64,000 nt of DNA from a virus (Duplodnaviria; Heunggongvirae; Uroviricota; Caudoviricetes). This document shows positions 1-20,417 of the stretch, in pieces (position 1 is the first letter of the stretch; every line of letters starts with the position of its first letter). The stretch is taken from the IMG/VR virus record IMGVR_UViG_3300014205_000195, positions 28,184 through 92,183 of that record; one strand, given 5' to 3'. The notes below the pieces were generated by a model. That model was given only the letters and a program-made list of their open reading frames with translations, was not told the DNA's origin and ran no database searches. The translations under genes were made by a program, and so were the position numbers.

Positions 1-2868
1 GTCCACCAGCGAGTCAGTTATGTTGGACGTCGTGACCGGGGTCCCGCTTGTGCAGCTGAAGCCGCTTGGGCCGCCCTTCAGGTCGCCCGGCCCGGGGCCG
101 GTCCCGGCCACCGACTGCGTGTTCACCTGGTAGTACATCTCGCCGGCCTGCGGCGACGGCGCCGCGTCGTTCGGCGTGAACGTGACCTGGTACGGGCCTG
201 TCTGCGAGGTCACCGGCGACGGCGAGACGGAGACGGAGGTGGACGCGGTCGGCGGACTTGGGTCCGTCAGGACGGTGAACGCGCTTGACGTCGTCGTCAG
301 CGTCCCGTCTGAGAGCTCCACCCTGAGCTGCGGCGCCCCGCTGGCGACCCCGACGGCGTTCCACGCCACGGTCACCGTGGTCGGCGAGCCGACGGCCGCG
401 GCACCGGCCTGCACCTGCTGGCTGGACGCGTTTATGAGGCGGTAGGATAGCGACCCTGACTCCGCGTCGGTCGCGGTGAACGTCACGAAGAAGCTCTGGT
501 TCCTGGGGCCGGCGCGGGTGAACCCAGAGCCGTACGAGACGGACGGCTGCACGGAGAACCCAGGCGCCGTGGTCCTGGGGACGACGATCGCGACCTCCGC
601 CGAGTTGCCCGCGGTGTCGACCACTCGGACGTACCGCGTGGCGCCGTTCGTGAGGCTGGGATCGCTCACAGAGGCAGTCACCTGCGTGCCGGCCGTCACC
701 GTCCCCGACGACAGCGTGCCGGCGCCGCCCACACCGGTGGCTATCGTCCACGACAGCTCGTTGGCACCTGTGGACCCTGTGTCGGTGGGCGTGAACCTGA
801 CCTGGTACGACGTGCCGACGACGGGCGAGGACACCAGCGTCGGCGAGCCCGCCGACGGCGCGATAGAGTCCCGCCTGACAGGGAACGAGCTCGTCGCCGT
901 CGACGTCCCATCGCTGACCTGCACCGACCACCCGCCGTTCACGCCATCCGCCGACACTGACGAGTACGGTATCGATGCGCTCGTTTGCTGGGCGCCGGCA
1001 GTGAATGCCACCGGCCCGACTATCGTCGACCCGACCTGGTTCAGCACCCTGTACGACAGCTGGCCGCCGCCGGTCTGCTCTGCGTCTGTCGCCGTGAACC
1101 TCACCTGGAACCCGCTGCTGGGCCCTGTCGCCAGCAGCCCCGCCCCATAGAGGACGACGGGGGCCGAGGTGAACGTCGGTGCGGTGTTTGAGGCGATGAC
1201 CGCCGACCGCTCGGTTATCGCGCCGGCGGCGTTCCTGACCCTCACGTACCTGGTGGCGCCGGCGTAGCCTGGGTCGTTCACATTGGCCGTCACCTGCTGC
1301 CCGGACGTGGCAGTGCCAGACGCCAGCTGGTTGCCTGTGGCGCCAGGCCCCGTGAACACCCAGTAGGTCAGCTGGCCGGCGCCCGTGCTCCTGGCGTCGG
1401 TCGGCGTGAACACCACGTTGTACGCCGGGCCGACGACCGTGGCCGGTGACGTCGTCACGGCGGAGATGGCCGGGGCCTCGTCCTCGCGGTCAAGAGTGAA
1501 GTCCGCCGTGTTGAGAGAGCCGACCACCCCGTCGTTTATCTTCAGCCTCAGGCTGCTCACGCCGTTCGGGATGTTGCCGGCGTTGTACGCTATCGCGACG
1601 CCATGCGTCACGCCGCTCGTGAACGTCCCGGACGCGACCGTCTGGCTCTCCACCCCGGAGACGAGCGTCACCACGGAGTAGTTCAGCTGGTTGCCGCCTG
1701 TCTGCTCGGCGTCAGTCGCGCGCCACGACACGGTCCACAGCGGGTTGGACGGTCCGGTCTTCGTCAGGCCACCGCCGTACGAGACGGACGGCAGGCTGGT
1801 GTAAATAGGGTTGCTGTTCGGCGTGGTCCACCCGACGTACAGCTCGGGGCCGCCGGACGCGTCGCCCATGTAGTATGTGGCGCTCTCCGAGCCACCAGGC
1901 GCTAGCCCGAGCCGCTGGTTGGACGACGACACGACGACCTTCGTCGTCCCCGTCCTGTTCACCTGCGGCCCGACGCCGTTGTCGGCGAACTGGTACCTGG
2001 TGCCGGACGAGAACCCGCCGTTGAGGTTGTACGCGGCCATCAGCGGGAGCGCTGCGAGCTGCGCGCCGGACCTGAAGTCGGCGGCGGCCGGCGTAGAACC
2101 GGACCAGTCGAACCGCCTGACCTCCATCGTGAAGTCGCCGCCGCTGGTGTTGTCTGAGGCGGCCCTCACCGAGAACCCGTGCCCGGAGCCGTCCACCGTC
2201 CCGCCCGCCGCGCCTATGTTGGAGGTGTTGAACCCGTGGAACGTCTGGTAGCAGTAGACGTCGAAGCCGTCGTTGTTCTGGCCCACGGTGTCCGTGCCGT
2301 TGGTGTTCGGCTGGACCGACCTGACCGCCGGCGACGCGCCCGCAGCGACGGCCGCGTAGTTGCCGCCGGAGCACGACGTCGACTGTACCTGCGACAGGTA
2401 CGTGAGGTAGGCCCCGTTGTTGTAGACGGACCAGTCCTCGAACGGTGGGCGCCCGATGTTTATGCGTCCGTTCACGAGCTGCCTGGCGAACAGCCACGGC
2501 TGCAGGATGTACGTCGCCGACGGGCCGCTGGTCGCGCTGGTCGCGCCCGACATGGCCGCCAGGTCGGAGACGCTCGTGTGTATGTCGTTGATCTGGAGGA
2601 TGCCGCGGTCGTACGACCCGTTCGTGTTGGGGCCGCCCCACACGTAGTAGCGGAGACCTGACTCGGCCATCGCGATGGCGACTATCGTGTTCACGTCGGC
2701 GCCGGAGAAGCCGGCCTGCTCCGCCAGGTACTTGGCGTGGCATATGGAGGCGGTGTTTATGTTCGGGTCGCTGAGGTCGCCCCCGCCGCCGGCCGGGGCG
2801 TACGCGAACACCATGCCGTCCTGCACGCCGGACGACGCCGGGGATGACAGGTATGTCGAGATCACCAC
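1..2868 (-). CDS. Virion-associated lytic transglycosylase (SLT domain near N-terminus) with long tandem Ig/FN3-like repeat region; 3' end lies beyond window edge
   Basis: Hand translation of the minus frame (codon 3rd positions at coordinates congruent to 1 mod 3) gives ...DPNINTASICHAKYLAEQAGFSGADVNTIVAIAMAESGLRYYVWGG... (AxxESG / GILQIN SLT motifs), then repeats such as SFFVTFTATDAESGSLSYR and YQVRFTPTD. No stop in this frame from 2901 to position 1. The + frame-2 ORFs at 176..2884 are its high-GC3 antisense shadow (their only stops are TAG). Start is uncertain: GTG 2868 or ATG 2814. Confidence 0.6.
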   Translation of the reverse strand, partial: MVISTYLSSPASSGVQDGMVFAYAPAGGGGDLSDPNINTASICHAKYLAEQAGFSGADVNTIVAIAMAESGLRYYVWGGPNTNGSYDRGILQINDIHTSVSDLAAMSGATSATSGPSATYILQPWLFARQLVNGRINIGRPPFEDWSVYNNGAYLTYLSQVQSTSCSGGNYAAVAAGASPAVRSVQPNTNGTDTVGQNNDGFDVYCYQTFHGFNTSNIGAAGGTVDGSGHGFSVRAASDNTSGGDFTMEVRRFDWSGSTPAAADFRSGAQLAALPLMAAYNLNGGFSSGTRYQFADNGVGPQVNRTGTTKVVVSSSNQRLGLAPGGSESATYYMGDASGGPELYVGWTTPNSNPIYTSLPSVSYGGGLTKTGPSNPLWTVSWRATDAEQTGGNQLNYSVVTLVSGVESQTVASGTFTSGVTHGVAIAYNAGNIPNGVSSLRLKINDGVVGSLNTADFTLDREDEAPAISAVTTSPATVVGPAYNVVFTPTDARSTGAGQLTYWVFTGPGATGNQLASGTATSGQQVTANVNDPGYAGATRYVRVRNAAGAITERSAVIASNTAPTFTSAPVVLYGAGLLATGPSSGFQVRFTATDAEQTGGGQLSYRVLNQVGSTIVGPVAFTAGAQQTSASIPYSSVSADGVNGGWSVQVSDGTSTATSSFPVRRDSIAPSAGSPTLVSSPVVGTSYQVRFTPTDTGSTGANELSWTIATGVGGAGTLSSGTVTAGTQVTASVSDPSLTNGATRYVRVVDTAGNSAEVAIVVPRTTAPGFSVQPSVSYGSGFTRAGPRNQSFFVTFTATDAESGSLSYRLINASSQQVQAGAAAVGSPTTVTVAWNAVGVASGAPQLRVELSDGTLTTTSSAFTVLTDPSPPTASTSVSVSPSPVTSQTGPYQVTFTPNDAAPSPQAGEMYYQVNTQSVAGTGPGPGDLKGGPSGFSCTSGTPVTTSNITDSLVD

Positions 2869-4842: not shown

Positions 4843-5034
4843 TCACCGCCCCGCCAGGTACCTGTCCACGACGGCCATTATCTGATCGTGCGCGGACGAC
4901 GCCTTCCTGAGCATGGACATGTTGGGGTCACCGCTCGAATCGCTCGGTACCATCCTCATCAGGGCCGCGTCTATCTCGCTCACGAGCTCCTGCCGCGTCA
5001 TCACTCGGCCCTGGTCCCATATAGACCTGCTCAT
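4843..5034 (-). CDS. hypothetical small protein (63 aa)
   Basis: ORF track; stop overlaps start region of next gene. Confidence 0.35.
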   Translation of the reverse strand: MSRSIWDQGRVMTRQELVSEIDAALMRMVPSDSSGDPNMSMLRKASSAHDQIMAVVDRYLAGR

Positions 5035-7997
5035 GCCGGCCCCCCGCCCAGCGCGAAGTTGCGCGATTCGCCGGCCGAGACCAGCCTCACGCTGCCCATG
5101 GACACCGGCGTCGTCTCCACTGACGGCACGCCCCTCGCCTCCAGATCCATGCCTGGCTCGTCGTCCTCATACCGCAGCGTCATGTGCGGCGTGTACCCGT
5201 GCGTGTGATCCACCGGCACGCCGGCGGCCGTCAGGGCCCTCACCAGGTCCGCCCTGAACTCCGACAAGCCCGGGACGTCCATCAGCGCGACGATTGGGGC
5301 GCGTCCTGGGGCGTTGAACCGCCCGACGCCGCCCACCGTGCCGCTGAGCGGTCCCGCCGACGCGCATACGGCCTCCACCGCGCGGACGGCGGCCTCCATC
5401 AGCCCGGCGCCAGTCAGGTCCCGCTTAGCGTCGTCCGTGAGATACGCGATCGTGACGTGCAGCTCGTTCGGCGGCTCCCCGCCGTCCACCGCCAGCCTCG
5501 TCGCGAGCTCCCGGTCGGGGAACCACGCGATCATGGCGCCCGGGTCGGCGTCGGCCGATATCTCCCTGTCGTCGTATCTGCCCGGCAGGTTCTCCGGGCC
5601 GCCCTTGTCCTCGTCGTCGGGGCCCTGTATCGTCACGCCCTTGCTCTCGGTCGACCCGAGGAGGACCTCCGCCTGCCTGACGTCCTCGTACGTCCCGTCG
5701 GCGCCGGCGCGCTCGATTATCTCGTGCTCCGGCTCGTCGCCGAACTTGACGCACGCACCCAGCCTCAGACCGTCGACTATGGCCTCGGCGTCCTCGTGCA
5801 GCGCGTCCACCGCCGCGAGGATGATCGGGTCGAGCGCGTCGCGATCGCGGACGGCCCTCTCGAGCTCCGAGCGGACCATCTCCACGACGTCCGCCCCGAA
5901 GCCTGACTTGGACAGCTTCGAGCCGACGTCGATGCCCAGGTCGGCGGCTGCCGACAGGACGTCAGACGTCCACAGCGCAGCGTCTCGCTCGCGGAGCGGG
6001 CGCACGGTGGTCGCCTTCCTCAGCGCCAGACCGAGCTCGTTGAACAGGGCGCCGTCGCCGGCGGCTGACGCCGACCTCTGCAGCCCGGAGATGAGCTTGG
6101 TGGCGTTCACGTACCCGTGCTCGACGGGGAACCCCGTGCCGTCCACCCATATCAGCCAGTCGCCTCGGTCGGCCCTCGCCGGGCCGCCCATCCACGTCAG
6201 CGCCGGCGGAGGCGCACCCTTGTCGAGGGCGGCGAGCACGGCGAACGCCGGCATCCTCAGGCTCGGCTCCGCTATGTGGATGGCCTTGTCGACTACGTCA
6301 GTTATCGCGTTGAACAGGAACGGCGTCTGCGGCGTCGAGAGCTTCGGCGTCCTCACTGGCTCCGACAGGGCGGGCTCCTTCCTGTCGTCGCTGCCATCCA
6401 CTATCTCGTACGCCCTGCCGGCGAAAGCGTCCGCTGGCATGGACTTCTCCATGCGCTTCTCCGGCGTCGCGGGCTCGAGCTCGTCCTCCTCGCCGCCCTC
6501 CATGTCGCGGAGCTTGGTGTAGTACCTCGGGTCCTCCGCCAGGTGGTCGCGCACGATGTTCGCGATCGAGTCCATGTCGCCGCCCACCGTCTCGTAGTGC
6601 TCAGACGACTCGGCCTCAAGGCCCTCGTCGAACTCGTCGACGCCGTTCTCGAGTCGCGGCCCGCTGATGGCCTCCATGACTATGTCGAGCGTGGCGGCGA
6701 GCTCGTCCCTGACGCCGGGGTTGTCGCTCAGGTCGCTCGGGTCCCACCACGCGAGCGACTCCACCATGTCGCCCCCCGGGTCGTCTGGGTTGTCTGCGTG
6801 GTCGCGCGGTCCCGCTATCGGGACGTCTGCCTCAGACTCCACGGTGTACACGAACCCGGCGTAGACGCCGTCGGGGGTCACCCACCTACCGGTCAGCTTG
6901 CCCGGCGGCAGCGGACACCCAGTCTCCTCCGACCACTCCCGCCTGGCGGCCCACGGGAGGGACTCCGAATCGCCGTCCCTGTGGCCGCCCGGGAACTCCC
7001 ACTTGCCCGCGGCCGCGTCGTCCTCGTTGCCGATGAGCGCCCGCTGCAGCATGAGCACGCGGCCGCTGTCGGCGGCCCTCACGGCCAGCCCGGCGACCTG
7101 CGGGCCGTCTGCGACCTCCGCCGGCGCCGACGCGCGCCGACCGGCCGCGTCCCGCGCGTGCCCGCGCGGCCTGTGCGACTCGACGTCGCCACGGCCGCTG
7201 CGCCTATGGTGCGCCGTGGACCCGTGCTTGTCCTTGTGCTTGTCGAGGAACCCGGCCGGACCTGTAGCCGTCTGTCGCCACGTCTGTATGCCGCCTGGCG
7301 TCTTGGCCTGCCGCTTCGCGGCCTGCGACAGCGCCTTCATGGCCTGCCCAGGTGTCACCGGGCACACGCCGTCCAAGCAGAACGCCGACTGCGCGAACTC
7401 GCCTGCGACATCGAACGACTTCGAGATGATGGTGAACTTGGCGTCAGGGTTGACGGGCGTCTCACAGATTGTGATCTCGTACAGCACGACCTCGTCGATC
7501 ACCCAGAAGCAGGTGCCTCCCTGGCACTCGTGCCTCCTGGACTCGAACGGCGCGTCCGCGGAGATGGAGAAGCTGGCCATCTTTCCGGACATGATGTCCT
7601 CGATGACCTTGTCCACCACCGGCGGCCTGTACTTGTCGGTCCTGACCTTGACCACCGCGAACAGGCCTATGTCGTCGACCTTGGTCTCATACACCTGACC
7701 GGTGCGCGGGTCCTTCCAGCTGCGCAGCACCTCGCCAACCTGCACGTTGCTGTGCAGCAGATTGGCGTTGCGGTACTTCGGGTTGGCCATGAACCTCGGG
7801 AGGTCCCTCGCCAGCGCGCGCTTGGTGATGACGTGCTTCTCGCGGTCCACGACCTGCGGCGACGCGTAGCCGGCGACCACCACGTCCGGTATGTCGCCGT
7901 CTCCCTTGTGCAGCACGGTCAGCTGGCCGTAGCCGCTCAGCGGGTACTGCGGGACCGTGCCGGTGACTATCCTATCCCAGGCCCTCGAAGCTATCAT
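5031..7997 (-). CDS. Multidomain fusion: N-terminal HK97-type prohead protease-like domain, central Nudix hydrolase domain, C-terminal 2H phosphoesterase (LigT-like) domain
   Basis: N-terminus resembles the Caudovirus prohead protease family. Nudix box GKWEFPGGHRDGDSESLPWAARREWSEETG is present. The C-terminus has two H-x-T motifs (HVTIAYL and HMTLRY) of the 2H phosphoesterase fold. Confidence 0.75.
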   Translation of the reverse strand: MIASRAWDRIVTGTVPQYPLSGYGQLTVLHKGDGDIPDVVVAGYASPQVVDREKHVITKRALARDLPRFMANPKYRNANLLHSNVQVGEVLRSWKDPRTGQVYETKVDDIGLFAVVKVRTDKYRPPVVDKVIEDIMSGKMASFSISADAPFESRRHECQGGTCFWVIDEVVLYEITICETPVNPDAKFTIISKSFDVAGEFAQSAFCLDGVCPVTPGQAMKALSQAAKRQAKTPGGIQTWRQTATGPAGFLDKHKDKHGSTAHHRRSGRGDVESHRPRGHARDAAGRRASAPAEVADGPQVAGLAVRAADSGRVLMLQRALIGNEDDAAAGKWEFPGGHRDGDSESLPWAARREWSEETGCPLPPGKLTGRWVTPDGVYAGFVYTVESEADVPIAGPRDHADNPDDPGGDMVESLAWWDPSDLSDNPGVRDELAATLDIVMEAISGPRLENGVDEFDEGLEAESSEHYETVGGDMDSIANIVRDHLAEDPRYYTKLRDMEGGEEDELEPATPEKRMEKSMPADAFAGRAYEIVDGSDDRKEPALSEPVRTPKLSTPQTPFLFNAITDVVDKAIHIAEPSLRMPAFAVLAALDKGAPPPALTWMGGPARADRGDWLIWVDGTGFPVEHGYVNATKLISGLQRSASAAGDGALFNELGLALRKATTVRPLRERDAALWTSDVLSAAADLGIDVGSKLSKSGFGADVVEMVRSELERAVRDRDALDPIILAAVDALHEDAEAIVDGLRLGACVKFGDEPEHEIIERAGADGTYEDVRQAEVLLGSTESKGVTIQGPDDEDKGGPENLPGRYDDREISADADPGAMIAWFPDRELATRLAVDGGEPPNELHVTIAYLTDDAKRDLTGAGLMEAAVRAVEAVCASAGPLSGTVGGVGRFNAPGRAPIVALMDVPGLSEFRADLVRALTAAGVPVDHTHGYTPHMTLRYEDDEPGMDLEARGVPSVETTPVSMGSVRLVSAGESRNFALGGGPA

Positions 7998-10910: not shown

Positions 10911-11486
10911 CTACTTCGGCAACCCTGCGATCGCCATCACCGCCTTCATGACCCGGATCTGCTTCACGCAGTCCTCGTCAGCCACATGGCCCACCAGGCC
11001 GTCGCCGGCAGTCTTGTAGGCGAGCGTCGCCGCGTCCGACGCGGCCTGGTTCAGCCTGAACAGCGTCCCCAGGTCCCTGGCGCCCTTGCGTCCCCATGCC
11101 GGCGCTATGCCGACGTGCGTGTACAGGTCGGACAGGAGCCTCTGGTCGTAGTACATGTGGCTCCACATGGCCGTGCACTTGTTCTCGCGGTAGAAAGCGT
11201 TGGCGGCGCGCAGGGCGTCGCCCAGCGGCAGCTTCGGCTCGGCCAGCAGCACGGCCCCCTGGGCCTCCGCCGACTGCTGCGCCCACCACATCACAGTGTC
11301 TACCGATGGCTTGCCGGGCGTGGACTTCGGGTCCACGTTGATGAGCGTCCTGGCGATCGGCTCGAAGTCGACCGTATCGTAGGTCACCATGCCTATCTGG
11401 AGAAGGCACAGGTCGCTCAGGCCCTCGGTGTCCACCATGCACTCAATTGGCATAATATATGCCCGCCACCTTCTCGCAATGCTCAC
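10911..11486 (-). CDS. DnaQ-like DEDDh 3'-5' exonuclease (191 aa)
   Basis: VDTEGL (Exo I) ... H...D motifs; paralogous to 37186..37782 (shared TVMWW motif). Confidence 0.6.
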   Translation of the reverse strand: MSIARRWRAYIMPIECMVDTEGLSDLCLLQIGMVTYDTVDFEPIARTLINVDPKSTPGKPSVDTVMWWAQQSAEAQGAVLLAEPKLPLGDALRAANAFYRENKCTAMWSHMYYDQRLLSDLYTHVGIAPAWGRKGARDLGTLFRLNQAASDAATLAYKTAGDGLVGHVADEDCVKQIRVMKAVMAIAGLPK

Positions 11487-11871: not shown

Positions 11872-11958
11872 CTGCGTCCCTGTAGTCTGGGTTGATGCCG
11901 TGGAGGGATAATCACACAGGGTGACAAAACGTGTTGCCATTACACCAGATGGGCCCGT

Positions 11959-12047
11959 TGGTGCCCACCGCAGGACTCGAACCTGCAACTTTCCTTTAGA
12001 AGAGGAAGAAGTAACCCTACGTTCGCCTCTCCGCGGCATCTCGTTCC
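11959..12047 (-). tRNA. tRNA-Arg(TCT)-like element with unpaired acceptor stem (possible pseudo-tRNA)
   Basis: T-arm GCAGG-TTCGAGT-CCTGC and anticodon arm TTCCT-CTTCTAA-AGGAA plus encoded CCA, but the 3' acceptor strand GGTGGGC has no complementary 5' strand. Confidence 0.4.
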
Positions 12048-12203: not shown

Positions 12204-12290
12204 CGGAACTGCGTGCCTGATTCGAACAGGCTACTCGGCAGACCGGGCGGTTTCGGTCGTTTCATCCCACTCTCCGTTGCCCCAACCACC
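12204..12290 (-). other. tRNA-like element (canonical T-arm GCCTG-TTCGAAT-CAGGC) with no recognisable acceptor pairing or anticodon arm
   Basis: T-arm read on minus strand at 12215..12231; no canonical cloverleaf could be folded by hand. Confidence 0.3.
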
Positions 12291-12344: not shown

Positions 12345-13011
12345 TCACCAGTCGCCGGCCATCCAGTCGGACAGCCTCCACCGCCTGCCTGTGCGATGGT
12401 CGAGCGCCTGGTCATCCTTGCACCGGTAGGTGCGTACCTTGTCGCCCCTCTCGCCGCGGCCGATCTGCCCGCGGCGATCGCCGTTCACTGATGCCGCCGC
12501 CTCCGACTTGCCGGCATCCGTCAGCCTCGCTTCCAGCACCGACAGGGCGAGCTGCCTGTTATGGTACTGCGACCGCGTGGACTCTATCCGGACGCGCTCG
12601 CCGGTCGGCCTGTGCACCACCACGACGGCGGACTCCGTCTTGTTCCTATGCTGCCCTCCGGGGCCGTCGCCGCGCGTGACCGAGACGTCCACATCCCGCA
12701 TGTCCAGGCGTGCCTCGGCGCCATCCTGTGGCCGCAGGACGGCCACGGTGACCGTGGACGTGTGCACCTTGCCGTTCTTCTCGTTAGGCGGCACCCTCTG
12801 CCACCTGTGGCCGCCACCCTCGCCCAGGAAGTCCGAGGCGTCGTCGCCGCTCACCTCCAGTGCGATGAACCCTGGCCTCTCCTCTATCGGAGAGAGGTCA
12901 AAGACCCCTCCGGTCGCAGCGGCGGGCGTAGGCCCTCGCCATCTCCGCAACCAGTGCCTTGGCCTCGTCGCCGCCCTCGGCGGCCCGTATCTCGATGAGC
13001 AACGTATCCAT
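12345..13011 (-). CDS. PrfH/RF-H-like peptide chain release factor (GGQ domain, lacks RF domain 1 and the SPF motif); translation appears to need a +1 programmed frameshift at CUU UGA C (codon 38)
   Basis: ATG at 13011 (AGGA 9 nt upstream) opens MDTLLIEIRAAEGGDEAKALVAEMARAYARRCDRRGL, which aligns with the start of RF2 domain 2 and then hits TGA. The +1 frame continues DLSPIEERPGF...GDGPGGQHRNKTESAV...RTYRCKDDQALDHRTG to the stop at 12345. The shift site GGAGGGG-U-CUU-UGA-C matches the prfB autoregulatory frameshift motif. The ORF-track N-terminus (12899..13241) is Arg/Pro-rich and out of frame. Confidence 0.7.
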
Positions 13012-13029
13012 GTGCTAATCCTGTCGTGT

Positions 13030-13103
13030 TGGTCGGACCATCGGGAATCGAACCCGAGCCTGGGACTTATCAGATCCCCGTTTTGCCACTCAACTATGGT
13101 CCA
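13030..13103 (-). tRNA. tRNA-Ile(GAT)
   Basis: anticodon loop CTGATAA; AC stem GGGAT/GTCCC; T-loop TTCGATT; CCA encoded. Confidence 0.75.
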
Positions 13104-13111
13104 ACTGGATA

Positions 13112-13180
13112 TGTCGCCAGGCGGACTCGAACCGCCTCGACGGTCGCCCGTCTTTATCCTTGGCTGGCCAGGCCGACGAC
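13112..13180 (-). ncRNA. tRNA-like RNA module (acceptor stem + T-arm + small GCGA-tetraloop hairpin, no anticodon arm); Y-RNA-like candidate adjacent to rsr
   Basis: Acceptor GTCGTCG/TGGCGAC (two G-U pairs), T-arm GGCGG-TTCGAGT-CCGCC, internal hairpin GACGG-GCGA-CCGTC. Only 69 nt, no 7-nt anticodon loop with U33, and no encoded CCA. It lies in the 175-nt gap between tRNA-Ile and the rsr stop. Confidence 0.4.
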
Positions 13181-13279
13181 ACGTGGCGGAAGGAGGAGCA
13201 CTCGAAGCCCAGCCCGGAGACCGGACCGCTCCGTTTAGCAAACGGGCCCGGCGCGCCTGTCCGGTTCACCTTCCATCGG

Positions 13280-14794
13280 CTACGACCCAGCGAGCGCCGT
13301 CCCAGCGATGGCTTGGACGAGCGCGTCCTGGCCGCCGCCGCTCTCGACGATGCCCATGAGGTCGAAGATCTTCTCGCTGAAGCCGGCCAGCGCCACGACA
13401 CGCTTCTCCGGGAACATCAGCGTCCCGTAACCGGCGAGGTCGATGCTGTACAGCATCGGGTCGGCGCCGGTCGCCTTCTTGTACGCCTTGAACGCGCCCT
13501 TGGTGGGACGGCTGTCGCCGTACGAGTCCTCCGCCCAACCCTGCATGTCCGACAGGATGATGATCCTGTCGTACGCGGTCCCCGTCTTCGTGATGAGATT
13601 GAACGCCGCGTGGAAGTTGGTCCCGCCGTAGTTGAACCGCAGCGACTCAGCCGCCGCAAGCACCGAGGACCCGGTGCCGAGGCTGTGGTACGACGCGTCT
13701 GTGCCGAACAGCACGAGGTCAGCACCGGTGGCGCGGACCAGGGCGGCCGCGAACAGCGCGCCCTTTTGGGCGGCACTGGCTGCGTCCCTCCCCTTCGTCC
13801 ACGTCATCGACGACGAGACGTCGAGGATGACGAGCGTCTTTCCGGGGAGGTCCGGGATGTTCCCGAGCGCGATGTCCGCCGCCCGCTCCACCGCGCCGAT
13901 CGCCTTGGCGGTCCCAGGGACCGACTTCAGCGTGTCACGTGCGACGGCAAACCTGAACGGGAGCACGAGACTGCCACGGATCCGCCGCTCGTCCGTCAGC
14001 TGCTCGCAGGCGATGTCGACAGCGTCCGGGGCGTCCTTCACGATGTTCCGCAGGTTGCGGAGGAGCGCGAAGTAACCGAGCTTGTTGTCACGGAGCAGCT
14101 GCTCCCAGGCGGCGCCCTTCGTGGCGCCGGTGCCCTCGTCGGACTGCCCAGCCTGCGTGAGGGCGACCTCCCACGTCTCCGCCGGCTTCAGCGTGCCGCC
14201 CATGAGGGCGGACAGGGCCGGCGTCGGCCGCGGGTGCGTCAGGTTGACCAGGTCGAGCATGTTGATGTCGCGCCCGGTGCCGAGGTACTTGGCCAGCTGG
14301 TACTCGTCGAGGCCCTCGATGGCCCGCGCGAACCCCTTCCGCATGGCGGCCGGCTCGTTCTTGCCGATGTTAGCGCGGTAGTAGCCGAGGATCTCGAACA
14401 TGTCGTCCGGGCGCCGGACGATGCGTTCGAAGAACGTCTTCGTCCACTGGGCACCCTTGACGCGCGCGGCGAGCTCCGCCGCCACGACGTGTGAGATAGA
14501 ACGCATGCCGAACTCTCGGCGAGCGTACAGGGCCGCCTTGGCGGCGAACTCCGGGTCGACCATATCGAGGACCCGCTTGAGCTGCTCGCGGCCGGCCGCC
14601 TCCGAGCGGTAGAACTTGTCATCCATGAAAGACGTAAGGAGCATCGAGACCAGCTCGAGATTGTCGGATTCCTTGTAGGCCCGCCCTCCGGCGAGGTTGG
14701 CGACCTTCGGCTTGGCGATCTTTACCGCCGGTGCCGGTGCCTTCTCCTGGAGCTTGTTGTACTTCGCCATCTCTGTCTCTCCTAAGCGCTGCAT
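13280..14794 (-). CDS. rsr: Ro60/Rsr orthologue (TROVE domain + C-terminal vWA domain)
   Basis: 504 aa; TROVE-like N-terminal region; vWA MIDAS motif LVILDVSSSM; architecture identical to bacterial Rsr. Confidence 0.8.
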   Translation of the reverse strand: MQRLGETEMAKYNKLQEKAPAPAVKIAKPKVANLAGGRAYKESDNLELVSMLLTSFMDDKFYRSEAAGREQLKRVLDMVDPEFAAKAALYARREFGMRSISHVVAAELAARVKGAQWTKTFFERIVRRPDDMFEILGYYRANIGKNEPAAMRKGFARAIEGLDEYQLAKYLGTGRDINMLDLVNLTHPRPTPALSALMGGTLKPAETWEVALTQAGQSDEGTGATKGAAWEQLLRDNKLGYFALLRNLRNIVKDAPDAVDIACEQLTDERRIRGSLVLPFRFAVARDTLKSVPGTAKAIGAVERAADIALGNIPDLPGKTLVILDVSSSMTWTKGRDAASAAQKGALFAAALVRATGADLVLFGTDASYHSLGTGSSVLAAAESLRFNYGGTNFHAAFNLITKTGTAYDRIIILSDMQGWAEDSYGDSRPTKGAFKAYKKATGADPMLYSIDLAGYGTLMFPEKRVVALAGFSEKIFDLMGIVESGGGQDALVQAIAGTALAGS

Positions 14795-14868
14795 GGTCCC
14801 GAAGGGATAAGCGGTGGTGGGCGTTTCATTGACCAGCGTTCTGCCGTCTGAACTACACGCCGCCGAAG

Positions 14869-14933
14869 CAGGCGAGGTTGGACTCGAACCAACGACATCC
14901 GGTTTCGATAAGAAGTAGCCCTCTACCTCGCCT
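14869..14933 (-). ncRNA. 65-nt tRNA-like element (perfect 7-bp acceptor AGGCGAG/CTCGCCT, T-arm GTTGG-TTCGAGT-CCAAC, 4-bp D-like hairpin, no canonical anticodon arm, no CCA)
   Basis: Read on minus strand; located just upstream of rsr inside a 380-nt non-coding region. Confidence 0.4.
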
Positions 14934-15176
14934 CTCCAGGACTTGCTGCGCTCAAAATGGTGACCGGGGGATTGGTCTGTCTGGGAGTCAACTGAGCGGA
15001 TTTAGAGTCCGATGTACGAAGTAACCCAGACGGTCGCCTCCCGACCGACCCTTTGCTCTGTGGAAGTATCTGAGGCAGGGATAGTTCCAGACGGGGGCTG
15101 TTGGAGAACACACAAGTTCGAAGTACCCGTCACGGTCGCCTCTGCGTCCGACACTCACATGATACCGAGACCTACG

Positions 15177-15252
15177 TGGTTGGCCCGGGGGGATTCGAAC
15201 CCCCGACCTCCCGCATGTCGAGCGGGGGCTCTAGCCGCTGAGCTACGGGCCA
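15177..15252 (-). tRNA. tRNA-Val(GAC)
   Basis: anticodon loop TCGACAT (C at position 33); perfect acceptor TGGCCCG/CGGGCCA; T-arm GGGGG-TTCGAAT-CCCCC; CCA encoded. Confidence 0.75.
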
Positions 15253-15261
15253 ACTTTTTGC

Positions 15262-15336
15262 TGGTTCCCCCGGAGGGATTCGAACCCTCGTACCCGGTGC
15301 TTCAAGCCGGTGCTACGCCGTCTCAGCTACAGGGGA
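15262..15336 (-). tRNA. tRNA-Phe(GAA)
   Basis: anticodon loop TTGAAGC; D-stem GCTG/TAGC; T-loop TTCGAAT; CCA encoded; C31:A39 mismatch. Confidence 0.65.
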
Positions 15337-15342
15337 ACTTGG

Positions 15343-16112: not shown

Positions 16113-16125
16113 GTCTCTTACCAGG

Positions 16126-16206
16126 TGCTCCGGGAGGGACTCGAACCCCCATGGCTCGCGGGGCCACACGCGTTGCATGATACATTTCCAATTCTGTCAC
16201 CGGAGT
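16126..16206 (-). other. class-II-sized tRNA-like element of uncertain identity (T-arm GGGGG-TTCGAGT-CCCTC, acceptor with A1:C72 mismatch, no clean anticodon arm)
   Basis: D-arm and variable-arm-like hairpins fold, but the anticodon loop lacks U33 and its stem is mostly G-U pairs. Confidence 0.3.
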
Positions 16207-16247
16207 ATGCTTACACTATACCACTCAACGGCGCCCGTGTAAACCCC

Positions 16248-16511: not shown

Positions 16512-16525
16512 GCCTGCCTCCTGAT

Positions 16526-16571
16526 AGCTGGGGGCGGGGTTCGAACCCGCGGCGACTTCTGTCTACCCCAG
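16526..16571 (-). other. 46-nt tRNA minihelix-like element: 7-bp acceptor-like stem GCTGGGG/CCCCAGC enclosing a canonical T-arm GCGGG-TTCGAAC-CCCGC, no D or anticodon arms
   Basis: Direct reading; resembles the 3' acceptor/T-arm portion of a tRNA. Confidence 0.35.
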
Positions 16572-16805
16572 CGTCACTGTCTCTCTGGGGAAGTCTTCCC
16601 TCCCCATGATGAGAACGAAGCACCGGCAGCACACGTAGGCCGTCAGCCCGTGCGCCGGCCGGCGCCGGTCGTCAAACATCCGCTCCTCGCCCACCTTGTG
16701 GGTCGCAGGCGCTCGACACATGGAACATCGCTCGCCGGCACACGCGGCGGACACCCAATGCTCGACACTCACGACATCCTCGGGATCATGCTGATCAGCT
16801 GCCAC
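16563..16805 (-). CDS. hypothetical Cys-rich small protein (80 aa)
   Basis: ORF track; CxxC pairs. Confidence 0.35.
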   Translation of the reverse strand: MAADQHDPEDVVSVEHWVSAACAGERCSMCRAPATHKVGEERMFDDRRRPAHGLTAYVCCRCFVLIMGREDFPRETVTLG

Positions 16806-17458
16806 CGGTGCTCGCGCCAGTTGAACGCCTGCGTCATGGCGCCGTCTGGCTCGACGAGCCCGCCCATCCTGTCACGCGGCGTCGCCACCTCGTCCAGCAT
16901 GACGTCGTTCAGCTCCAGCCGCTCCACTAGCTCATGCACCTTCATGCCCTGGCACGCAGAGTGCCCGAACCGGCTCTGCGCGATGGCGTTGATGCTGTTC
17001 CTAACGGCATCTTTCTGTCGCCAGAGGAAGTAGTTCTCCACCTCTGTAGGGTCCGGTATTGTCCAGACCCGCGAATCGAACGTCGCGAGCCGTCTCCACT
17101 CAGGCATGGCCGCGTTGAAGCACGCGGTCGCTATCGACGCCGACACGCTAGCGAGCTTCTGGACGTTGTTGTCGAACATGGCCTCCGTCTCTACCGTCTC
17201 GAAGTCGGTCATCAGAAGGCTCACCTCGTCGCTCTGCACGTACGCAAACCTCGCGTTCTGCATCGTGGTGACGAGCCCTGAGGCGACCGCGTCCATCGCG
17301 TTCGTTATCATCCGGTCGAACGGCTTCTCGAACGGGCGACACAGCGTGTGGAACGCGCGTCCGTCCACCCTGATGAGCGTGTACGTGCGGCGCGGCAGCA
17401 TGTACCGGGTCCTGTCCTCGTACTGCCTCTTCATCCGATCGCCTAGCTCGTCGCGCAT
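16769..17458 (-). CDS. Thg1-like protein (tRNA-His guanylyltransferase family, 3'-5' nucleotidyltransferase used in tRNA 5'-end repair)
   Basis: YTLIRVDGRAFHTLCRPFEKPFD...AYVQSDEVSL matches the Thg1/TLP signature (RIDGRxFHKF...KPND...SDE); start trimmed to the internal Met because the ORF-track N-terminus overlaps tRNA-Arg. Confidence 0.7.
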   Translation of the reverse strand: MRDELGDRMKRQYEDRTRYMLPRRTYTLIRVDGRAFHTLCRPFEKPFDRMITNAMDAVASGLVTTMQNARFAYVQSDEVSLLMTDFETVETEAMFDNNVQKLASVSASIATACFNAAMPEWRRLATFDSRVWTIPDPTEVENYFLWRQKDAVRNSINAIAQSRFGHSACQGMKVHELVERLELNDVMLDEVATPRDRMGGLVEPDGAMTQAFNWREHRWQLISMIPRMS

Positions 17459-17481
17459 CACACCAGCCTCGCTGTGGTCTT

Positions 17482-17556
17482 TGGTACCCTCGGCAGGACT
17501 CGAACCCACATCCTGACGTTCGAAGCGTCGCATCCTATCCGTTGGACGACGAGGGC
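17482..17556 (-). tRNA. tRNA-Arg(TCG)
   Basis: anticodon loop CTTCGAA; T-loop TTCGAGT; CCA encoded; G1:U72 wobble. Confidence 0.7.
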
Positions 17557-19398: not shown

Positions 19399-19487
19399 TG
19401 GAGGAGGGCGGCGGACTCGAACCCCCACGCCGGCTCTCGCCGACCTCACCGCTTTCGAGGCGGCGTACCTCTCCTTTGGGGCCCTCC
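19399..19487 (-). tRNA. tRNA-Ser(CGA) (class II)
   Basis: anticodon loop CTCGAAA; perfect acceptor GGAGGGC/GCCCTCC; long variable arm; CCA encoded. Confidence 0.75.
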
Positions 19488-19489
19488 AC

Positions 19490-19702
19490 TCATGTGACGA
19501 CGACGAATATGACCGCCATGCAGCAGGCGACAGCCAGGGCGTACGTACCGACGTAACCGATCAGCAGCGCGGCGACCCAGTGGCTGCCGATCGACAGGGT
19601 GCTCTCCCTCTGCCGGGCGACGTCGATGAGCAGCGACCTGATGTTGGCCACGCATAGCGCGATAACGACGACGCTTATAATGACAGCCAGCCAACCGACC
19701 AT
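19490..19702 (-). CDS. small two-TM membrane protein (70 aa), holin-like topology
   Basis: Two hydrophobic segments (LAVIISVVVIALCV / VAALLIGYVGTYALAVACCMAVIFVVV). Confidence 0.45.
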   Translation of the reverse strand: MVGWLAVIISVVVIALCVANIRSLLIDVARQRESTLSIGSHWVAALLIGYVGTYALAVACCMAVIFVVVT

Positions 19703-20328: not shown

Positions 20329-20417
20329 TGGCGGAAGGACAGGGAATCGAACCCTGGACCCGGTCTCCCGGGCAGCCGCTTTCAAGGCGGTGTCCTCGTC
20401 CGTGCCGGACGCCTTCC
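20329..20417 (-). tRNA. tRNA-Ser(TGA) (class II)
   Basis: anticodon loop CTTGAAA; discriminator G; long variable arm; CCA encoded. Confidence 0.7.

What the first reader, a model, noticed from the sequence alone, without database searches (positions are those of the whole stretch)
13104..15176. Ro60/Rsr orthologue flanked by two anticodon-less tRNA-like modules and a 380-nt non-coding region: candidate phage Y RNA locus
The rsr gene (TROVE + vWA) is bracketed by two elements that each have a paired acceptor stem and a canonical T-arm but no anticodon arm and no CCA. One is at 13112..13180, with a GCGA-tetraloop hairpin. The other is at 14869..14933. Bacterial Y RNAs have a tRNA-like domain and are encoded next to rsr, often with RtcB. 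The upstream 14795..15176 region is unusually long for this genome and holds a direct repeat ACGGTCGCCTC at about 15033 and 15134.
Basis: partly seen in the sequence, partly recalled or inferred. Interest (0 to 1): 0.8.

Follow-up and report, generated by a model that had tools for sequence, protein, structure and literature searches.

The report
Phage Ro60 gene with four Y RNAs
Inside a phage tRNA gene cluster sits a gene for the ring-shaped RNA-binding protein Ro60 (Rsr) together with four small structured Y RNA genes of the type that partner this protein; this kind of phage locus is already known, but this divergent version falls below the curated threshold of the standard RNA family library.

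Summary
The core idea, a phage Y RNA locus, holds.

- **rsr gene:** it lies at 13280..14770(-) and encodes a TROVE/vWA protein.
- **Upstream region:** the 380-nt region is not one leader. It holds three tandem Y RNA modules, W1 15071..15149, W2 14961..15047 and W3 14797..14941. The reported direct repeat is their conserved 5' motif (GAGGCGA-N-UACUUC).
- **Model scores:** covariance models built only from relatives in other phage contigs score W4 at 81 bits and W3 at 71 bits as full-length YrlA-type RNAs (terminal stem, then T-arm, closed acceptor hairpin, D-arm). W1 and W2 score as short YrlB-like modules (E about 1e-3 and 2e-2).
- **Family support:** covariation is strong, and 115 of 115 significant matches lie on the rsr strand.
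- **Element 14869..14933:** this is the 5' half of W3. Its "acceptor stem" is an alternative pairing that relatives do not conserve.
- **Downstream stretch:** it holds an unannotated tRNA-Ser(GCU) and a 70-nt tRNA-shaped element with no anticodon loop. That element is not a Y RNA by these models and remains unexplained.
- **RtcB:** none in the window. A Pnkp/RlaP/Rnl1 RNA repair cassette is present.

This is a new member of a known kind.

The parts
13280..14770 (-). rsr (Ro60 orthologue), 496 aa; the mechanical ORF extends to ATG 14794, but the likely start is ATG 14770 behind AGGAGA
   Evidence: Pfam TROVE 2e-18 and vWA_Ro60 1.2e-5. Identical to called protein P0001. Full-length match to the Thermus phage phiLo Ro60 structure 9KOP/9L5Y, E=1.3e-26.
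15071..15149 (-). Y RNA module W1 (short, YrlB-like). Terminal stem GCAG/CUGC, bulged A, GG:CC, loop CGA, stem P2 GACGGG/CCCGUC, apical UACUUC plus hairpin GAAC-UUGUGU-GUUC.
   Evidence: Model R2 (no window sequences) 26.5 bits, E=1.2e-3, full length, whole window with filters off. Also the second-best hit of R1.
14961..15047 (-). Y RNA module W2 (short, YrlB-like). P1 UCGGG/CCCGG, GG:CC, CGA, P2 GUCUGGG/CCCAGAC, UUACUUC, 35-nt apical insert.
   Evidence: R2 21.4 bits, E=0.018, full length. Best hit of R1 in the window.
14797..14941 (-). Y RNA module W3 (YrlA-type). Terminal stem, CUACUUC, T-arm GUUGG-UUCGAGU-CCAAC, closed acceptor hairpin with UUCG loop, D-arm GUUC-AGACGGCA-GAAC. Ends 27 nt before the rsr start codon.
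   Evidence: R3 70.8 bits, E=5.7e-15, model 1-137. Rfam YrlA RF02553 28.7 bits, E=0.0018, model 1-114, below the gathering score of 69. R2 gives only 10.7 bits.
11898..12036 (-). Y RNA module W4 (YrlA-type, the best-formed copy). About 20-bp interrupted terminal stem with exact GGCGAACG, UUACUUC, hairpin UUCCU-CUUCUAA-AGGAA, T-arm GCAGG-UUCGAGU-CCUGC, 7-bp acceptor hairpin whose loop starts ACCA, D-arm GUGU-AAUGGCA-ACAC. Starts 13 nt after tRNA-Met.
   Evidence: R3 81.3 bits, E=1.7e-17. R2 29.8 bits, E=2e-4. Its MFE fold equals the family consensus fold. Rfam tRNA 26.7 bits and a partial YrlA match of 20.1 bits.
14908..15142 (-). Span holding the three copies of the 27-nt repeated 5' motif (GAGGCGA-N9-10-UACUUCG) of W1-W3. 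A fourth copy lies at 12007..12033 in W4.
   Evidence: the repeat finder families D1 and D17. Pattern count against shuffles.
13184..13274 (-). Probable tRNA-Ser(GCU) with encoded G73-CCA, 5 nt after the rsr stop codon. Has U7.U66 and U49.C65 mismatches.
   Evidence: ARAGORN at 90% threshold. Its acceptor GGAAGG/CCUUCC-G-CCA matches that of tRNA-Ser(UGA) 20329..20417. Missed by default ARAGORN and by Rfam.
13112..13181 (-). tRNA-shaped element without an anticodon loop. Acceptor and T stems stack to 13 bp, the D-arm is class-II-like (CCU-GGCCAGCCA-AGG), AUAAA occupies the place of the anticodon arm, and a GACGG-GCGA-CCGUC hairpin precedes the T-arm. No CCA. Not a Y RNA by the models used; function unresolved.
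   Evidence: MFE fold is a cloverleaf at -33.8 kcal/mol. Best Rfam match is tRNA-Sec, 20.8 bits, E=0.64. No R2 match. R3 gives only a 13.2-bit partial match running into tRNA-Ile.
15177..15252 (-). tRNA-Val(GAC), the 5' neighbour of the Y RNA array on the same strand.
   Evidence: ARAGORN and Rfam.
13030..13103 (-). tRNA-Ile(GAU), the 3' neighbour of the tRNA-like element.
   Evidence: ARAGORN and Rfam.

Best explanation
This is a phage-encoded Ro60 (Rsr) ribonucleoprotein locus embedded in a tRNA operon of at least 39 genes. Four Y RNA genes lie on the same strand as rsr: three in tandem directly upstream (W1, W2, W3) and one 1.25 kb downstream (W4).

**Shown here**
- Each module has a long stem formed by its 5' and 3' ends. 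The stem carries a conserved 5'-strand motif (GAGGCGA here, GGYAGYGA in relatives), which corresponds to the GNCGAA motif Chen 2014 proposed for Rsr recognition.
- The stem is followed by an apical loop with the invariant UACUUC and a variable effector module. That module is a small hairpin in W1 and W2. In W3 and W4 it is a circularly permuted tRNA-like domain (T-arm, closed acceptor hairpin, D-arm).
- The evidence covers family membership, covariation-supported structure, strand and position.

**Inferred from characterised systems** (D. radiodurans, S. Typhimurium, M. smegmatis, Thermus phage phiLo)
- The modules are cut out of a long tRNA/Y RNA/rsr precursor by host tRNA-processing nucleases.
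- Rsr binds the stem motif.
- The different apical modules tether the Rsr ring to, or gate it from, effectors such as a 3'-5' exoribonuclease. Candidates are host PNPase or the phage's own Rv2179c-like enzyme, encoded about 400 nt beyond W4.
- The likely purpose is surveillance or decay of structured RNAs (tRNA, rRNA) during infection.

The tRNA-shaped element 13112..13181 is most likely a decayed class II tRNA copy, or a processing punctuation element of the operon, and not part of the Rsr system.
For: - **Protein:** rsr has TROVE plus vWA domains and matches the phiLo Ro60 structure over its full length.
- **Wide occurrence:** 475 IMG/VR stretches encode relatives, and nearly every fetched locus carries 2-6 tandem modules with the same motif upstream of rsr.
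- **Strand and position:** R1 found 115 matches at E<0.01 in 63 loci. All are on the rsr strand and almost all lie within 800 nt upstream.
- **Covariation, terminal stem:** 16 pairs, all with double-sided changes; 86.8% of cells paired against 61.3% in shuffles; covariation score 0.70 against 0.23; slid controls at most 0.27. Nine of the 16 pairs were not in the model that made the alignment.
- **Covariation, YrlA-type set:** on a plain MAFFT alignment, 36 pairs with 90.3% of cells paired against 62.5%; 31 pairs have double-sided changes.
- **Window search with models containing no window sequence, filters off, both strands:** R3 scores W4 at 81.3 bits and W3 at 70.8 bits, both full length, while the next hit is 34.7 bits and partial. 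R2 scores W4, W1 and W2 as its top three.
- **Rfam YrlA:** full-length sub-threshold match on W3.
- **Window paralogues:** they keep the motifs while P1 and P2 differ in sequence but stay paired (alignments).
- **Transcription signals:** no minus-strand terminator, and only one sigma-70-like promoter (at 16243), in 11.3-16.3 kb.
- **Precedents:** Y RNAs lie within 4 kb of rsr on the same strand, and M. smegmatis YrlA and YrlB come from one precursor upstream of rsr (PMC4201824). phiLo Ro60 binds two upstream-encoded Yrl RNAs and forms a complex with PNPase (PMC12135203).
Against: - No expression, processing or binding data exist for this uncultivated phage.
- All four modules fall far below the Rfam YrlA gathering score (28.7 and 20.1 bits against 69; W1 and W2 give no Rfam match).
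- The E-values for W1 and W2 are modest (1e-3 and 2e-2, with rough calibration).
- The predicted MFE fold of W3 is not the family fold.
- The GNCGAA motif is exact only in W4.
- MFE z-scores of the flanks are not significant.
- R2 does not find phiLo's experimentally bound Yrl RNAs upstream of its Ro60 gene, so no member of this particular family has been shown to bind Ro60.
- The link to an exoribonuclease is inferred from proximity only.
Confidence: 0.8

Rival explanations
1. The elements are non-functional debris of the tRNA array: decayed tRNAs and tRNA dimers whose T-arm and D-arm fortuitously resemble YrlA. Their position next to rsr would then be incidental.
For: - The window holds 39 tRNAs on this strand and several other orphan T-arms or tRNA-like fragments at 16534-16550, 16134-16150 and 12215-12231.
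- tRNA dimers do give partial YrlA-like and R3 matches (one search hit 15228..15290; one search hits of 35 bits or less). Chen 2014 names this artefact (PMC4201824).
- Element 13112..13181 is plausibly such debris.
Against: - W3 and W4 match the full 137-position model, including the terminal stem that has nothing to do with tRNA, at 71-81 bits. tRNA junctions reach at most 35 bits and only over positions 28-105.
- W1 and W2 have no tRNA-like part at all, yet match R2.
- The stem covaries across more than 100 modules.
- Modules are strand- and position-locked to rsr in loci that have no tRNAs. Only 21 of 80 loci carry tRNAs.
Confidence: 0.04
2. The upstream modules act mainly in cis, as a structured leader of the rsr mRNA. 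Rsr would bind its own 5' UTR and autoregulate its translation or stability. They would not be released as trans-acting Y RNAs.
For: - W1-W3 lie directly upstream on the same strand, with no promoter or terminator between them and rsr.
- The 3' strand of the W3 terminal stem ends 27 nt from the start codon, close to the Shine-Dalgarno sequence.
- W3 has a competing, more stable alternative fold, as riboswitch-like leaders do.
Against: - W4 is separated from rsr by three tRNA-type elements and a release-factor gene, and follows two tRNA-Met genes.
- Some relatives carry modules downstream of rsr (L070, L081).
- In M. smegmatis, YrlA and YrlB encoded upstream of rsr are processed from the precursor and bound in trans (PMC4201824).
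- Tandem arrays of 2-6 differing modules fit several RNPs better than one leader.
- The two roles are not mutually exclusive.
Confidence: 0.1
3. The tRNA-shaped element without an anticodon loop, 13112..13181, is itself a functional partner of the system. It could be a decoy or substrate for tRNA-targeting defence nucleases, for Rsr, or for the CCA-adding, RNase P or repair enzymes.
For: - It folds as a clean cloverleaf with a perfect T-loop and a 13-bp acceptor/T stack.
- It lies 99 nt from rsr, inside a phage that also encodes Thg1, Pnkp, RlaP, Rnl1 and a release factor.
- A second minimal acceptor/T-arm element exists at about 16524..16572.
Against: - It matches neither Y RNA model.
- It lacks the GGCGA and UACUUC motifs.
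- No homologue could be found, because the closest Rsr relative is only 56% identical. Conservation is therefore untested.
- No equivalent was seen downstream of rsr in nine relatives.
- It has no CCA and carries an atypical U at the discriminator position.
Confidence: 0.06

Closest known systems
YrlA (Rfam RF02553; S. Typhimurium and M. smegmatis YrlA; Chen et al. 2014, PMC4201824; structure preprint 10.1101/312249)
   Same: - Encoded next to rsr on the same strand.
- Stem formed by the 5' and 3' ends, with a GNCGAA-type motif on the 5' strand.
- YUAY (CUAC/UUAC) opens the variable-loop region.
- Then a T-arm, an acceptor stem closed by a loop and a D-arm, giving a circularly permuted tRNA-like domain.
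- Like M. smegmatis YrlA, W4 has a 7-bp acceptor stem, and the RNAs lie upstream of rsr in an apparent common precursor.
   Different: - Scores of 20-29 bits against the Rfam gathering score of 69.
- The 5' motif is GGCGA(A/C/G) here and AGYGA in relatives, rather than strict GNCGAA.
- An invariant UACUUC and a pyrimidine-rich 3' motif (AUUUUCUCC, here AUCCC) define the phage family.
- The variable-arm position carries a hairpin shaped like an anticodon arm (5 bp, 7-nt loop).
- There is no RtcR/RtcBA operon context.
YrlB / Yrn2-type short Y RNAs (S. Typhimurium, M. smegmatis, D. radiodurans)
   Same: W1 and W2 are short hairpin-type modules with the stem motif but no tRNA-like domain. They are encoded beside the YrlA-type RNA, as in the three characterised bacteria, each of which has at least two Y RNAs.
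   Different: No detectable sequence relationship was tested or expected, since YrlB has homologues only within Salmonella. Here the short and long forms are clearly paralogues sharing one stem architecture, and they occur in tandem arrays.
Thermus phage phiLo Ro60 with Yrl1/Yrl2 (PMC12135203; PDB 9KOP, 9L5Y)
   Same: A phage-encoded Ro60 with Y-like RNAs encoded upstream. It is the closest solved structure to the window's Rsr (E=1.3e-26). In vitro it shows RNA binding and a complex with host PNPase.
   Different: Model R2 finds no module upstream of the phiLo gene, only a weak hit downstream (E=0.33). The RNAs therefore belong to a different or very divergent family. phiLo has two RNAs and is not reported within a tRNA array.
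Metazoan Y RNAs (Rfam RF00019)
   Same: Modular design: a terminal bulged stem that binds Ro60, plus a variable apical module.
   Different: No tRNA-like domain, different conserved helix sequence (GGUCCGA), RNA polymerase III genes, and no Rfam match here.
Circularly permuted tRNA genes (algae, some archaea)
   Same: W4 contains every tRNA arm in permuted order. Its acceptor stem is closed by a loop that begins ACCA.
   Different: Those precursors are spliced and re-opened into working tRNAs. Nothing suggests that happens here, and the permutation junction is extended into a Ro-type stem.

Membership tests
Ro60/Rsr protein (TROVE ring + vWA) | TROVE domain above the Pfam cut-off | tested here: met
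   PF05731 at 67.2 bits against a cut-off of 23. 2987 homologues at E<=1e-3, many named 60 kDa SS-A/Ro.
Ro60/Rsr protein (TROVE ring + vWA) | C-terminal Ro60-type vWA domain | tested here: inconclusive
   PF25045 at 25.8 bits against a cut-off of 27.7, and VWA_2 at 21.4 against 27. However, the alignment to phiLo Ro60 (9KOP) runs through residues 26-478.
YrlA (Chen 2014 / Rfam RF02553) | Encoded within 4 kb of rsr on the same strand | tested here: met
   W3 ends 27 nt upstream of the rsr start. W4 starts 1.24 kb downstream of the stop. W1 and W2 lie within 380 nt. All are on the minus strand.
YrlA (Chen 2014 / Rfam RF02553) | GNCGAAN0-1G motif near the 5' end | tested here: inconclusive
   W4 has the exact motif GGCGAACG. 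W1 and W2 have GGCGACCG and W3 has GGCGAGG, one mismatch each. The consensus in relatives is AGYGA.
YrlA (Chen 2014 / Rfam RF02553) | tRNA-like domain in the order T-arm, closed acceptor stem-loop, D-arm, with canonical T-loop and D-loop GG | tested here: met
   Met for W3 and W4 (alignments). Not present in W1 and W2.
YrlA (Chen 2014 / Rfam RF02553) | Conserved YUAY at the start of the variable loop | tested here: met
   CUAC in W3, UUAC in W2 and W4, GUAC in W1. UAC is invariant in relatives.
YrlA (Chen 2014 / Rfam RF02553) | Score at or above the Rfam gathering threshold (69 bits) | tested here: not met
   W3 scores 28.7 bits. W4 scores 20.1 bits as a partial match. None of 20 related phage loci reached the threshold either.
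YrlA (Chen 2014 / Rfam RF02553) | Bound and stabilised by Rsr; tRNA-type modifications; RNase P cleavage | not testable with these tools
   Needs RIP/EMSA, Northern blots and modification mapping.
Phage rsr-associated Y module family (defined here by models R2 and R3) | Full-length match to the covariance models built from other phage loci | tested here: met
   R3: W4 81.3 bits, W3 70.8 bits. R2: W4 29.8, W1 26.5, W2 21.4 bits. Element 13112..13181 and the rest of 13090..13300 give no match.
rsr-yrlBA-rtcBA RNA repair operon (Salmonella type) | RtcB ligase (and RtcA/RtcR) encoded with rsr | tested here: not met
   No RtcB domain in the 30 largest ORFs of the window. A Pnkp, RlaP and Rnl1-type ligase cassette lies at 41974..44737 instead. 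The rest of the 107-kb contig was not examined.
Canonical tRNA (for element 13112..13181) | Four arms, including an anticodon stem with a 7-nt loop; detection by tRNA finders | tested here: not met
   Not called by ARAGORN at default, 90% or 85% thresholds. The Rfam tRNA clan gives only tRNA-Sec at 20.8 bits, E=0.64. The hairpin loop is the tetraloop GCGA.

The most novel reading that the evidence does not exclude
The phage may run an integrated system that maintains the translation apparatus and counters host defence. Several distinct Ro60-Y RNA particles would be transcribed and processed together with its own tRNAs. The particles would be two with complete permuted tRNA mimics and two with small hairpins.

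They would work with the co-encoded 3'-5' exoribonuclease, Thg1, a release factor and the Pnkp/RlaP/Rnl1 repair enzymes. Together these would triage tRNAs damaged by host anticodon nucleases.

Within this picture two further steps are possible:
- W4 has a 7-bp acceptor hairpin whose loop reads ACCA. RNase P could open it into a nicked, CCA-ended tRNA mimic.
- The tRNA-shaped elements lacking an anticodon loop (13112..13181 and about 16524..16572) could be decoys or dedicated substrates rather than debris.
Probability: 0.12. Interest if true: 0.7.

Novelty: new member of a known kind. Interest (0 to 1): 0.4.

Why it matters
Ro60 and its Y RNAs are conserved from bacteria to humans, and what they do in phages is barely explored. 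One structural and biochemical study covers phiLo. One genetic hint comes from phage Bas63, where a Ro60-like protein counters the 'ppl' defence system (PMC11482910).

- **An unlisted family:** this locus, and the hundreds of related viral contigs found on the way, show that many phage rsr genes carry tandem arrays of 2-6 Y RNA modules. The modules share a sharply conserved signature (AGYGA ... UACUUC ... UUUUCUCC) that scores below the Rfam YrlA threshold, so routine annotation leaves them unlabelled.
- **Annotation errors:** in crAss-like phage csAssE-Sib, two genes annotated as tRNAs lie inside Y modules. Some tRNA-array annotations may therefore be misleading.
- **Ready-made tools:** the two covariance models and the covariation-supported structure give testable RNA partners for phage Ro60 proteins.

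For this window alone the result is confirmatory. It does not change the concept.

Tried and rejected
- **Nucleotide search:** megablast of 12900-15400 against 50,697 phage records found nothing, so no close relative exists for base-by-base comparison. The best protein relative is 56% identical.
- **Whole-flank MFE folding:** z-scores were not significant, so this was uninformative.
- **nhmmer with a short 5'-motif profile:** only marginal E-values (0.03-0.3), and W1 was missed. The motif is too short and the profile is AT-rich against a 66% GC window.
- **RNAalifold on the plain MAFFT alignment of short modules:** it predicted no pairs. The structure had to be entered by hand and tested with pair counts.
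- **Pattern scan of IMG/VR (GAGGCGA-N7-GG-N-TACTTC):** 41 loci, of which only one (L094) encoded an Rsr. The rest are chance matches.
- **R1 on the window:** it ranked W2, W1 and W4 first, but at E=0.6-7. The refined models were needed.
- **R2 restricted to 13090-13300:** nothing. The idea that the downstream flank is a fifth module was rejected.
- **ARAGORN at 85% threshold:** 30 extra calls, many inside genes. It was used only as a pointer. Only the tRNA-Ser(GCU) call, which also passes at 90% and aligns with the genuine tRNA-Ser genes, was accepted.
rejected as the conserved structure, because the 5' strand of that pairing is the family's conserved motif and relatives close the acceptor stem locally. 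It remains a possible alternative conformer.
- **RtcB linkage:** not found.


Full report
**Setting.** The window is 66% G+C. It carries phage genes (portal-like, a domain resembling a prohead protease, ribonucleotide reductase, NAMPT, 5-hmdU DNA kinase, RecA, primase, DnaB) and 39 tRNA genes, all on the minus strand between 8.6 and 24.9 kb. It is part of a 107-kb metagenomic contig, ENA ERZ27247358 k141_1647009. No phage record shares nucleotide similarity with the locus. The best protein relative of the Rsr among deposited phages is a 635-kb uncultured phage at 45.6% identity. The best relative anywhere in the protein collection is 56% identical.

**The protein.** ORF 13280..14794(-) matches Pfam TROVE at 67.2 bits; vWA_Ro60 (25.8 bits) and VWA_2 (21.4 bits) both fall below their Pfam cut-offs.
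- The probable start is ATG 14770, which lies behind an AGGAGA Shine-Dalgarno sequence. That 496-aa product is identical to the called protein P0001.
- The closest solved structure is the Ro60 of Thermus phage phiLo (9KOP/9L5Y), E=1.3e-26 over residues 26-478. Xenopus Ro60 and D. radiodurans Rsr follow.
- The rsr assignment is confirmed.

**First look at the flanks.** A permissive Rfam scan of 12900-15400 gave a full-length (1-114) but sub-threshold YrlA match at 14815..14922(-): 28.7 bits against a gathering score of 69, E=0.0018. The order was T-arm, hairpin, D-arm. The same scan gave only a weak tRNA-Sec match at 13112..13181(-), 20.8 bits, E=0.64. Folding each flank whole gave unremarkable z-scores.

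**Relatives reveal the real unit.**
- A degenerate-pattern scan of IMG/VR found 475 stretches encoding relatives of this Rsr, and 80 loci were fetched.
- Reading the DNA upstream of rsr in these loci showed 2-6 tandem modules in nearly every case. Each begins (G)GYAGYGA, then after 9-11 nt the invariant UACUUC, and ends in a pyrimidine-rich AUUUUCUCC.
- The window's minus strand has the same signature in a G+C-rich dialect, GAGGCGA-N9-10-UACUUC. It occurs at 15125, 15023 and 14917, and a fourth time at 12013.
The repeat finder reports it as a 27-nt family with three copies spaced 102-106 nt. The pattern GGCGA-N10-TACTTC occurs three times exactly. With one mismatch allowed there are 5 matches against 0.83 expected, and no shuffle out of 100 reached 5.

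**Structure and covariation of the family.**
- *Model R1* was built from 46 short modules of relatives, with only seven inner stem pairs annotated.
- *Strand and position.* R1 found 115 matches at E<0.01 in 63 loci. Every one lies on the rsr strand, and nearly all lie within 800 nt upstream of rsr.
- *Terminal stem.* On the resulting alignment I identified a 16-pair terminal stem. It consists of P1 (5 bp), a bulge, a 2-bp step AG:CU that covaries to GG:CC, an internal loop UGA/AUUUU, and P2 (9 bp). All 16 pairs show double-sided changes. 86.8% of cells are paired against 61.3% in shuffles, and the covariation score is 0.70 against 0.23 (0 of 500 shuffles). Slid controls score 0.27 or less. Nine of these pairs were not part of the model that made the alignment.
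- *Modules with a tRNA-like insert.* A second set of 26 such modules was aligned by MAFFT alone. It supports 36 pairs: the terminal stem, a hairpin in the variable-arm position, the T-arm, a closed acceptor hairpin and the D-arm. Here 90.3% of cells are paired against 62.5%, 31 pairs have double-sided changes, and the score is 0.745 against 0.223.
- *Conclusion.* This is the YrlA architecture described by Chen et al. 2014 (PMC4201824) and solved by Wang et al. (10.1101/312249). The anticodon-stem equivalent continues into the Ro-binding stem, YUAY opens the variable region, and the acceptor stem is closed by a loop.

**The window scored with models that contain none of its sequence** (whole 64 kb, both strands, filters off).
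- *R3, the YrlA-type model.* It gives 81.3 bits (E=1.7e-17) at 11898..12036(-) and 70.8 bits (E=5.7e-15) at 14797..14941(-), both over model positions 1-137. The next hits reach at most 34.7 bits. The strongest cover only the tRNA-like core (from position 28) across junctions of neighbouring tRNAs, the known dimeric-tRNA artefact. W2 and W1 also appear, full-length, at 21.3 and 19.6 bits.
- *R2, the terminal-stem model.* Its top three hits are W4 at 29.8 bits (E=2e-4), W1 15073..15148 at 26.5 bits (E=1.2e-3) and W2 14963..15046 at 21.4 bits (E=0.018). W3 comes fifth at 10.7 bits.
- *Result.* The locus holds two YrlA-type RNAs (W3, W4) and two short YrlB-like RNAs (W1, W2).
- *Paralogue comparison.* The four paralogues keep A-GG-CGA, UACUUC and AU(C)CC. 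Their P1 helices (GCAG/CUGC, UCGGG/CCCGG, UGGAG/CUUCG, GGAG/CUCC) and P2 helices differ in sequence but remain paired (alignments).
- *W4.* Its MFE fold is exactly the family fold at -55.4 kcal/mol. It carries the exact GNCGAAN0-1G motif (GGCGAACG). It has a hairpin UUCCU-CUUCUAA-AGGAA that the Rfam tRNA model reads as an anticodon arm (26.7 bits). Its acceptor hairpin has 7 bp (GGUGGGC/GCCCAUC) and a loop that begins ACCA.
- *W3.* It is less clean. The family fold costs -43.7 kcal/mol.

**The downstream flank.**
- R2 finds nothing in 13090..13300.
- ARAGORN at a 90% threshold calls tRNA-Ser(GCU) at 13184..13274(-). Its acceptor stem, discriminator G and encoded CCA match the genuine tRNA-Ser(UGA) of the window. 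It fills a gap in the anticodon set. Two mismatches at the acceptor/T junction explain why default tools missed it.
It folds as a cloverleaf with a 13-bp acceptor/T stack, a class-II-like D-arm, AUAAA where the anticodon arm should be, and a GNRA-capped hairpin just before the T-arm. It has no CCA.
- It looks like a class II tRNA that has lost its anticodon arm. It has none of the Y RNA motifs.
- No homologue is available to test conservation, and nine relatives show nothing similar downstream of rsr.
- A second minimal acceptor/T-arm element (about 16524..16572) and other orphan T-arms occur elsewhere in the array. Such elements are therefore not specific to rsr.
- I regard its function as unresolved. 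The most likely readings are tRNA debris or a processing punctuation element.

**Expression context (inferred).** Between 11.3 and 16.3 kb the minus strand shows one sigma-70-like promoter (at 16243..16215) and no intrinsic terminator. Modules are separated from each other, and from the flanking tRNAs, by only 13-28 nt. This fits a long precursor cut by tRNA-processing enzymes, as shown for M. smegmatis YrlA and YrlB (PMC4201824).

**Functional context.**
- No RtcB is present among the 30 largest ORFs.
- The window does encode a T4-type repair set: Pnkp 41974..42879, RlaP 42876..43682 and an Rnl1-family ligase 43580..44737.
- It also encodes Thg1 (16769..17533) and a 2H/LigT phosphoesterase domain (within 5031..7997).
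- An Rv2179c-like 3'-5' exoribonuclease (10911..11486) lies about 400 nt beyond W4.
- Bacterial Rsr works with 3'-5' exoribonucleases, and phiLo Ro60 with its Yrl RNAs binds host PNPase (PMC12135203). An exoribonuclease-tethering role is therefore the most likely mechanism, but it is inferred, not shown.

**What is known already.**
- Chen et al. 2014 reported YrlA-like RNAs next to rsr in 254 bacteria and 22 phages.
- The 2025 phiLo study showed a phage Ro60 binding two upstream-encoded RNAs.
- Iyer and Aravind noted TROVE proteins with a tRNA-like partner in jumbo phages (PMC7824862).
- The PhageMaP preprint suggested that some 'tRNAs' next to the Ro60-like gp130 of Bas63 may be Y RNAs (PMC11482910).
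- I found no paper in the held library that describes the AGYGA...UACUUC family or its tandem arrays. No Rfam family other than YrlA, at sub-threshold scores, touches it.
- R2 also detects modules in cultured or deposited viruses. The crAss-like phage csAssE-Sib has three, two of which enclose annotated tRNA-Tyr and tRNA-Lys genes. The haloarchaeal virus HGTV-1 has one directly upstream of its TROVE gene. None was found upstream of the phiLo gene.

**Verdict.** The finding is real, and its main interpretation is right in kind. The anatomy is corrected to four Y RNA genes, two of them YrlA-type. The downstream tRNA-shaped element is set apart as unexplained. It is a new, divergent member of a known kind of system. 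Interest is moderate, mostly because it exposes a large family of phage Y RNAs absent from Rfam 15 and from the literature searched.

Noticed in passing
window 12345..13011 (-): A phage-encoded class I release factor (PCRF plus RF-1 domains, GGQ present) that lacks the N-terminal domain. Its reading frame is broken by an in-frame UGA in the context AGGGGU CUU UGA C, the classic RF2 (prfB) +1 frameshift cassette. The +1 frame continues to 12345. The codon-recognition region reads QRVPPNEKNGKVHTS, which is RF1-like but has PPN in place of PxT. Public gene calls split it into 37-aa and 169-aa genes.
   Followed up: partly
window 13184..13274 (-): An unannotated, probable tRNA-Ser(GCU) with encoded CCA, directly after the rsr stop codon. 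Default ARAGORN and Rfam both miss it. It has two mismatches at the acceptor/T-stem junction.
   Followed up: yes
window ~16524..16572 (-); also 12215..12231 (-), 16124..16206 (-), 19400..19491 (-): Further tRNA-like pieces outside the annotated tRNAs:
- A 49-nt minihelix at about 16524..16572, made of a 7-bp acceptor stem (GCUGGGG/CCCCAGC), a 15-nt connector and a perfect T-arm.
- An orphan T-arm in the 140-nt gap after the release-factor gene (12215..12231).
- Low-threshold tRNA candidates: Arg-ACG-like at 16124..16206 and Ser-CGA at 19400..19491.
   Followed up: partly
window 41974..44737 (-); 16769..17533 (-); 10911..11486 (-); 5031..7997 (-): A T4-type RNA repair cassette: Pnkp kinase-phosphatase, an RlaP nucleotidyltransferase and an Rnl1-family ligase. 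The window also encodes Thg1 (tRNA-His guanylyltransferase), an Rv2179c-like 3'-5' exoribonuclease just beyond W4, and a 988-aa protein combining a domain resembling a prohead protease, NUDIX and 2H/LigT phosphoesterase domains. No RtcB is present.
   Followed up: partly
L130 (phage csAssE-Sib OR575929.1) 1147..1277 and 1293..1423; L024 2351..2483; L062 1895..2025; L007 2363..2422: In some relatives the apical insert of a Y module is a nearly complete tRNA in normal order (D-arm, anticodon arm, T-arm), and the module's stem replaces the acceptor stem. In csAssE-Sib, the annotated tRNA-Tyr and tRNA-Lys genes lie inside such modules. The family therefore has two tRNA-mimic topologies, and some phage 'tRNA genes' may in fact be Y RNAs.
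   Followed up: partly
window 11948..11969 (-), within W4: The closed acceptor hairpin of W4 has 7 bp, and its loop begins ACCA (discriminator plus CCA) directly after the strand equivalent to tRNA positions 66-72. M. smegmatis YrlA, which also has a 7-bp stem, is cut by RNase P and receives CCA (PMC4201824). W4 might be opened into a CCA-ended tRNA mimic.
   Followed up: no
L131 (Halogranum tailed virus 1, KC292026.1) 1342..1435: A module of the same family (R2 21.5 bits, E=0.014) lies directly upstream of the TROVE gene of a haloarchaeal virus. The family may therefore extend to archaeal viruses.
   Followed up: no
L006 3938..4025 (IMGVR_UViG_3300036766_001364): This is the only other G+C-rich relative (61%). 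Directly downstream of its rsr lies a stem-loop with Y-module-like ends (GGGGAG...CAGUCAU...CUCCCC), but with UCCAUC in place of UACUUC. It may be a degenerate module.
   Followed up: no
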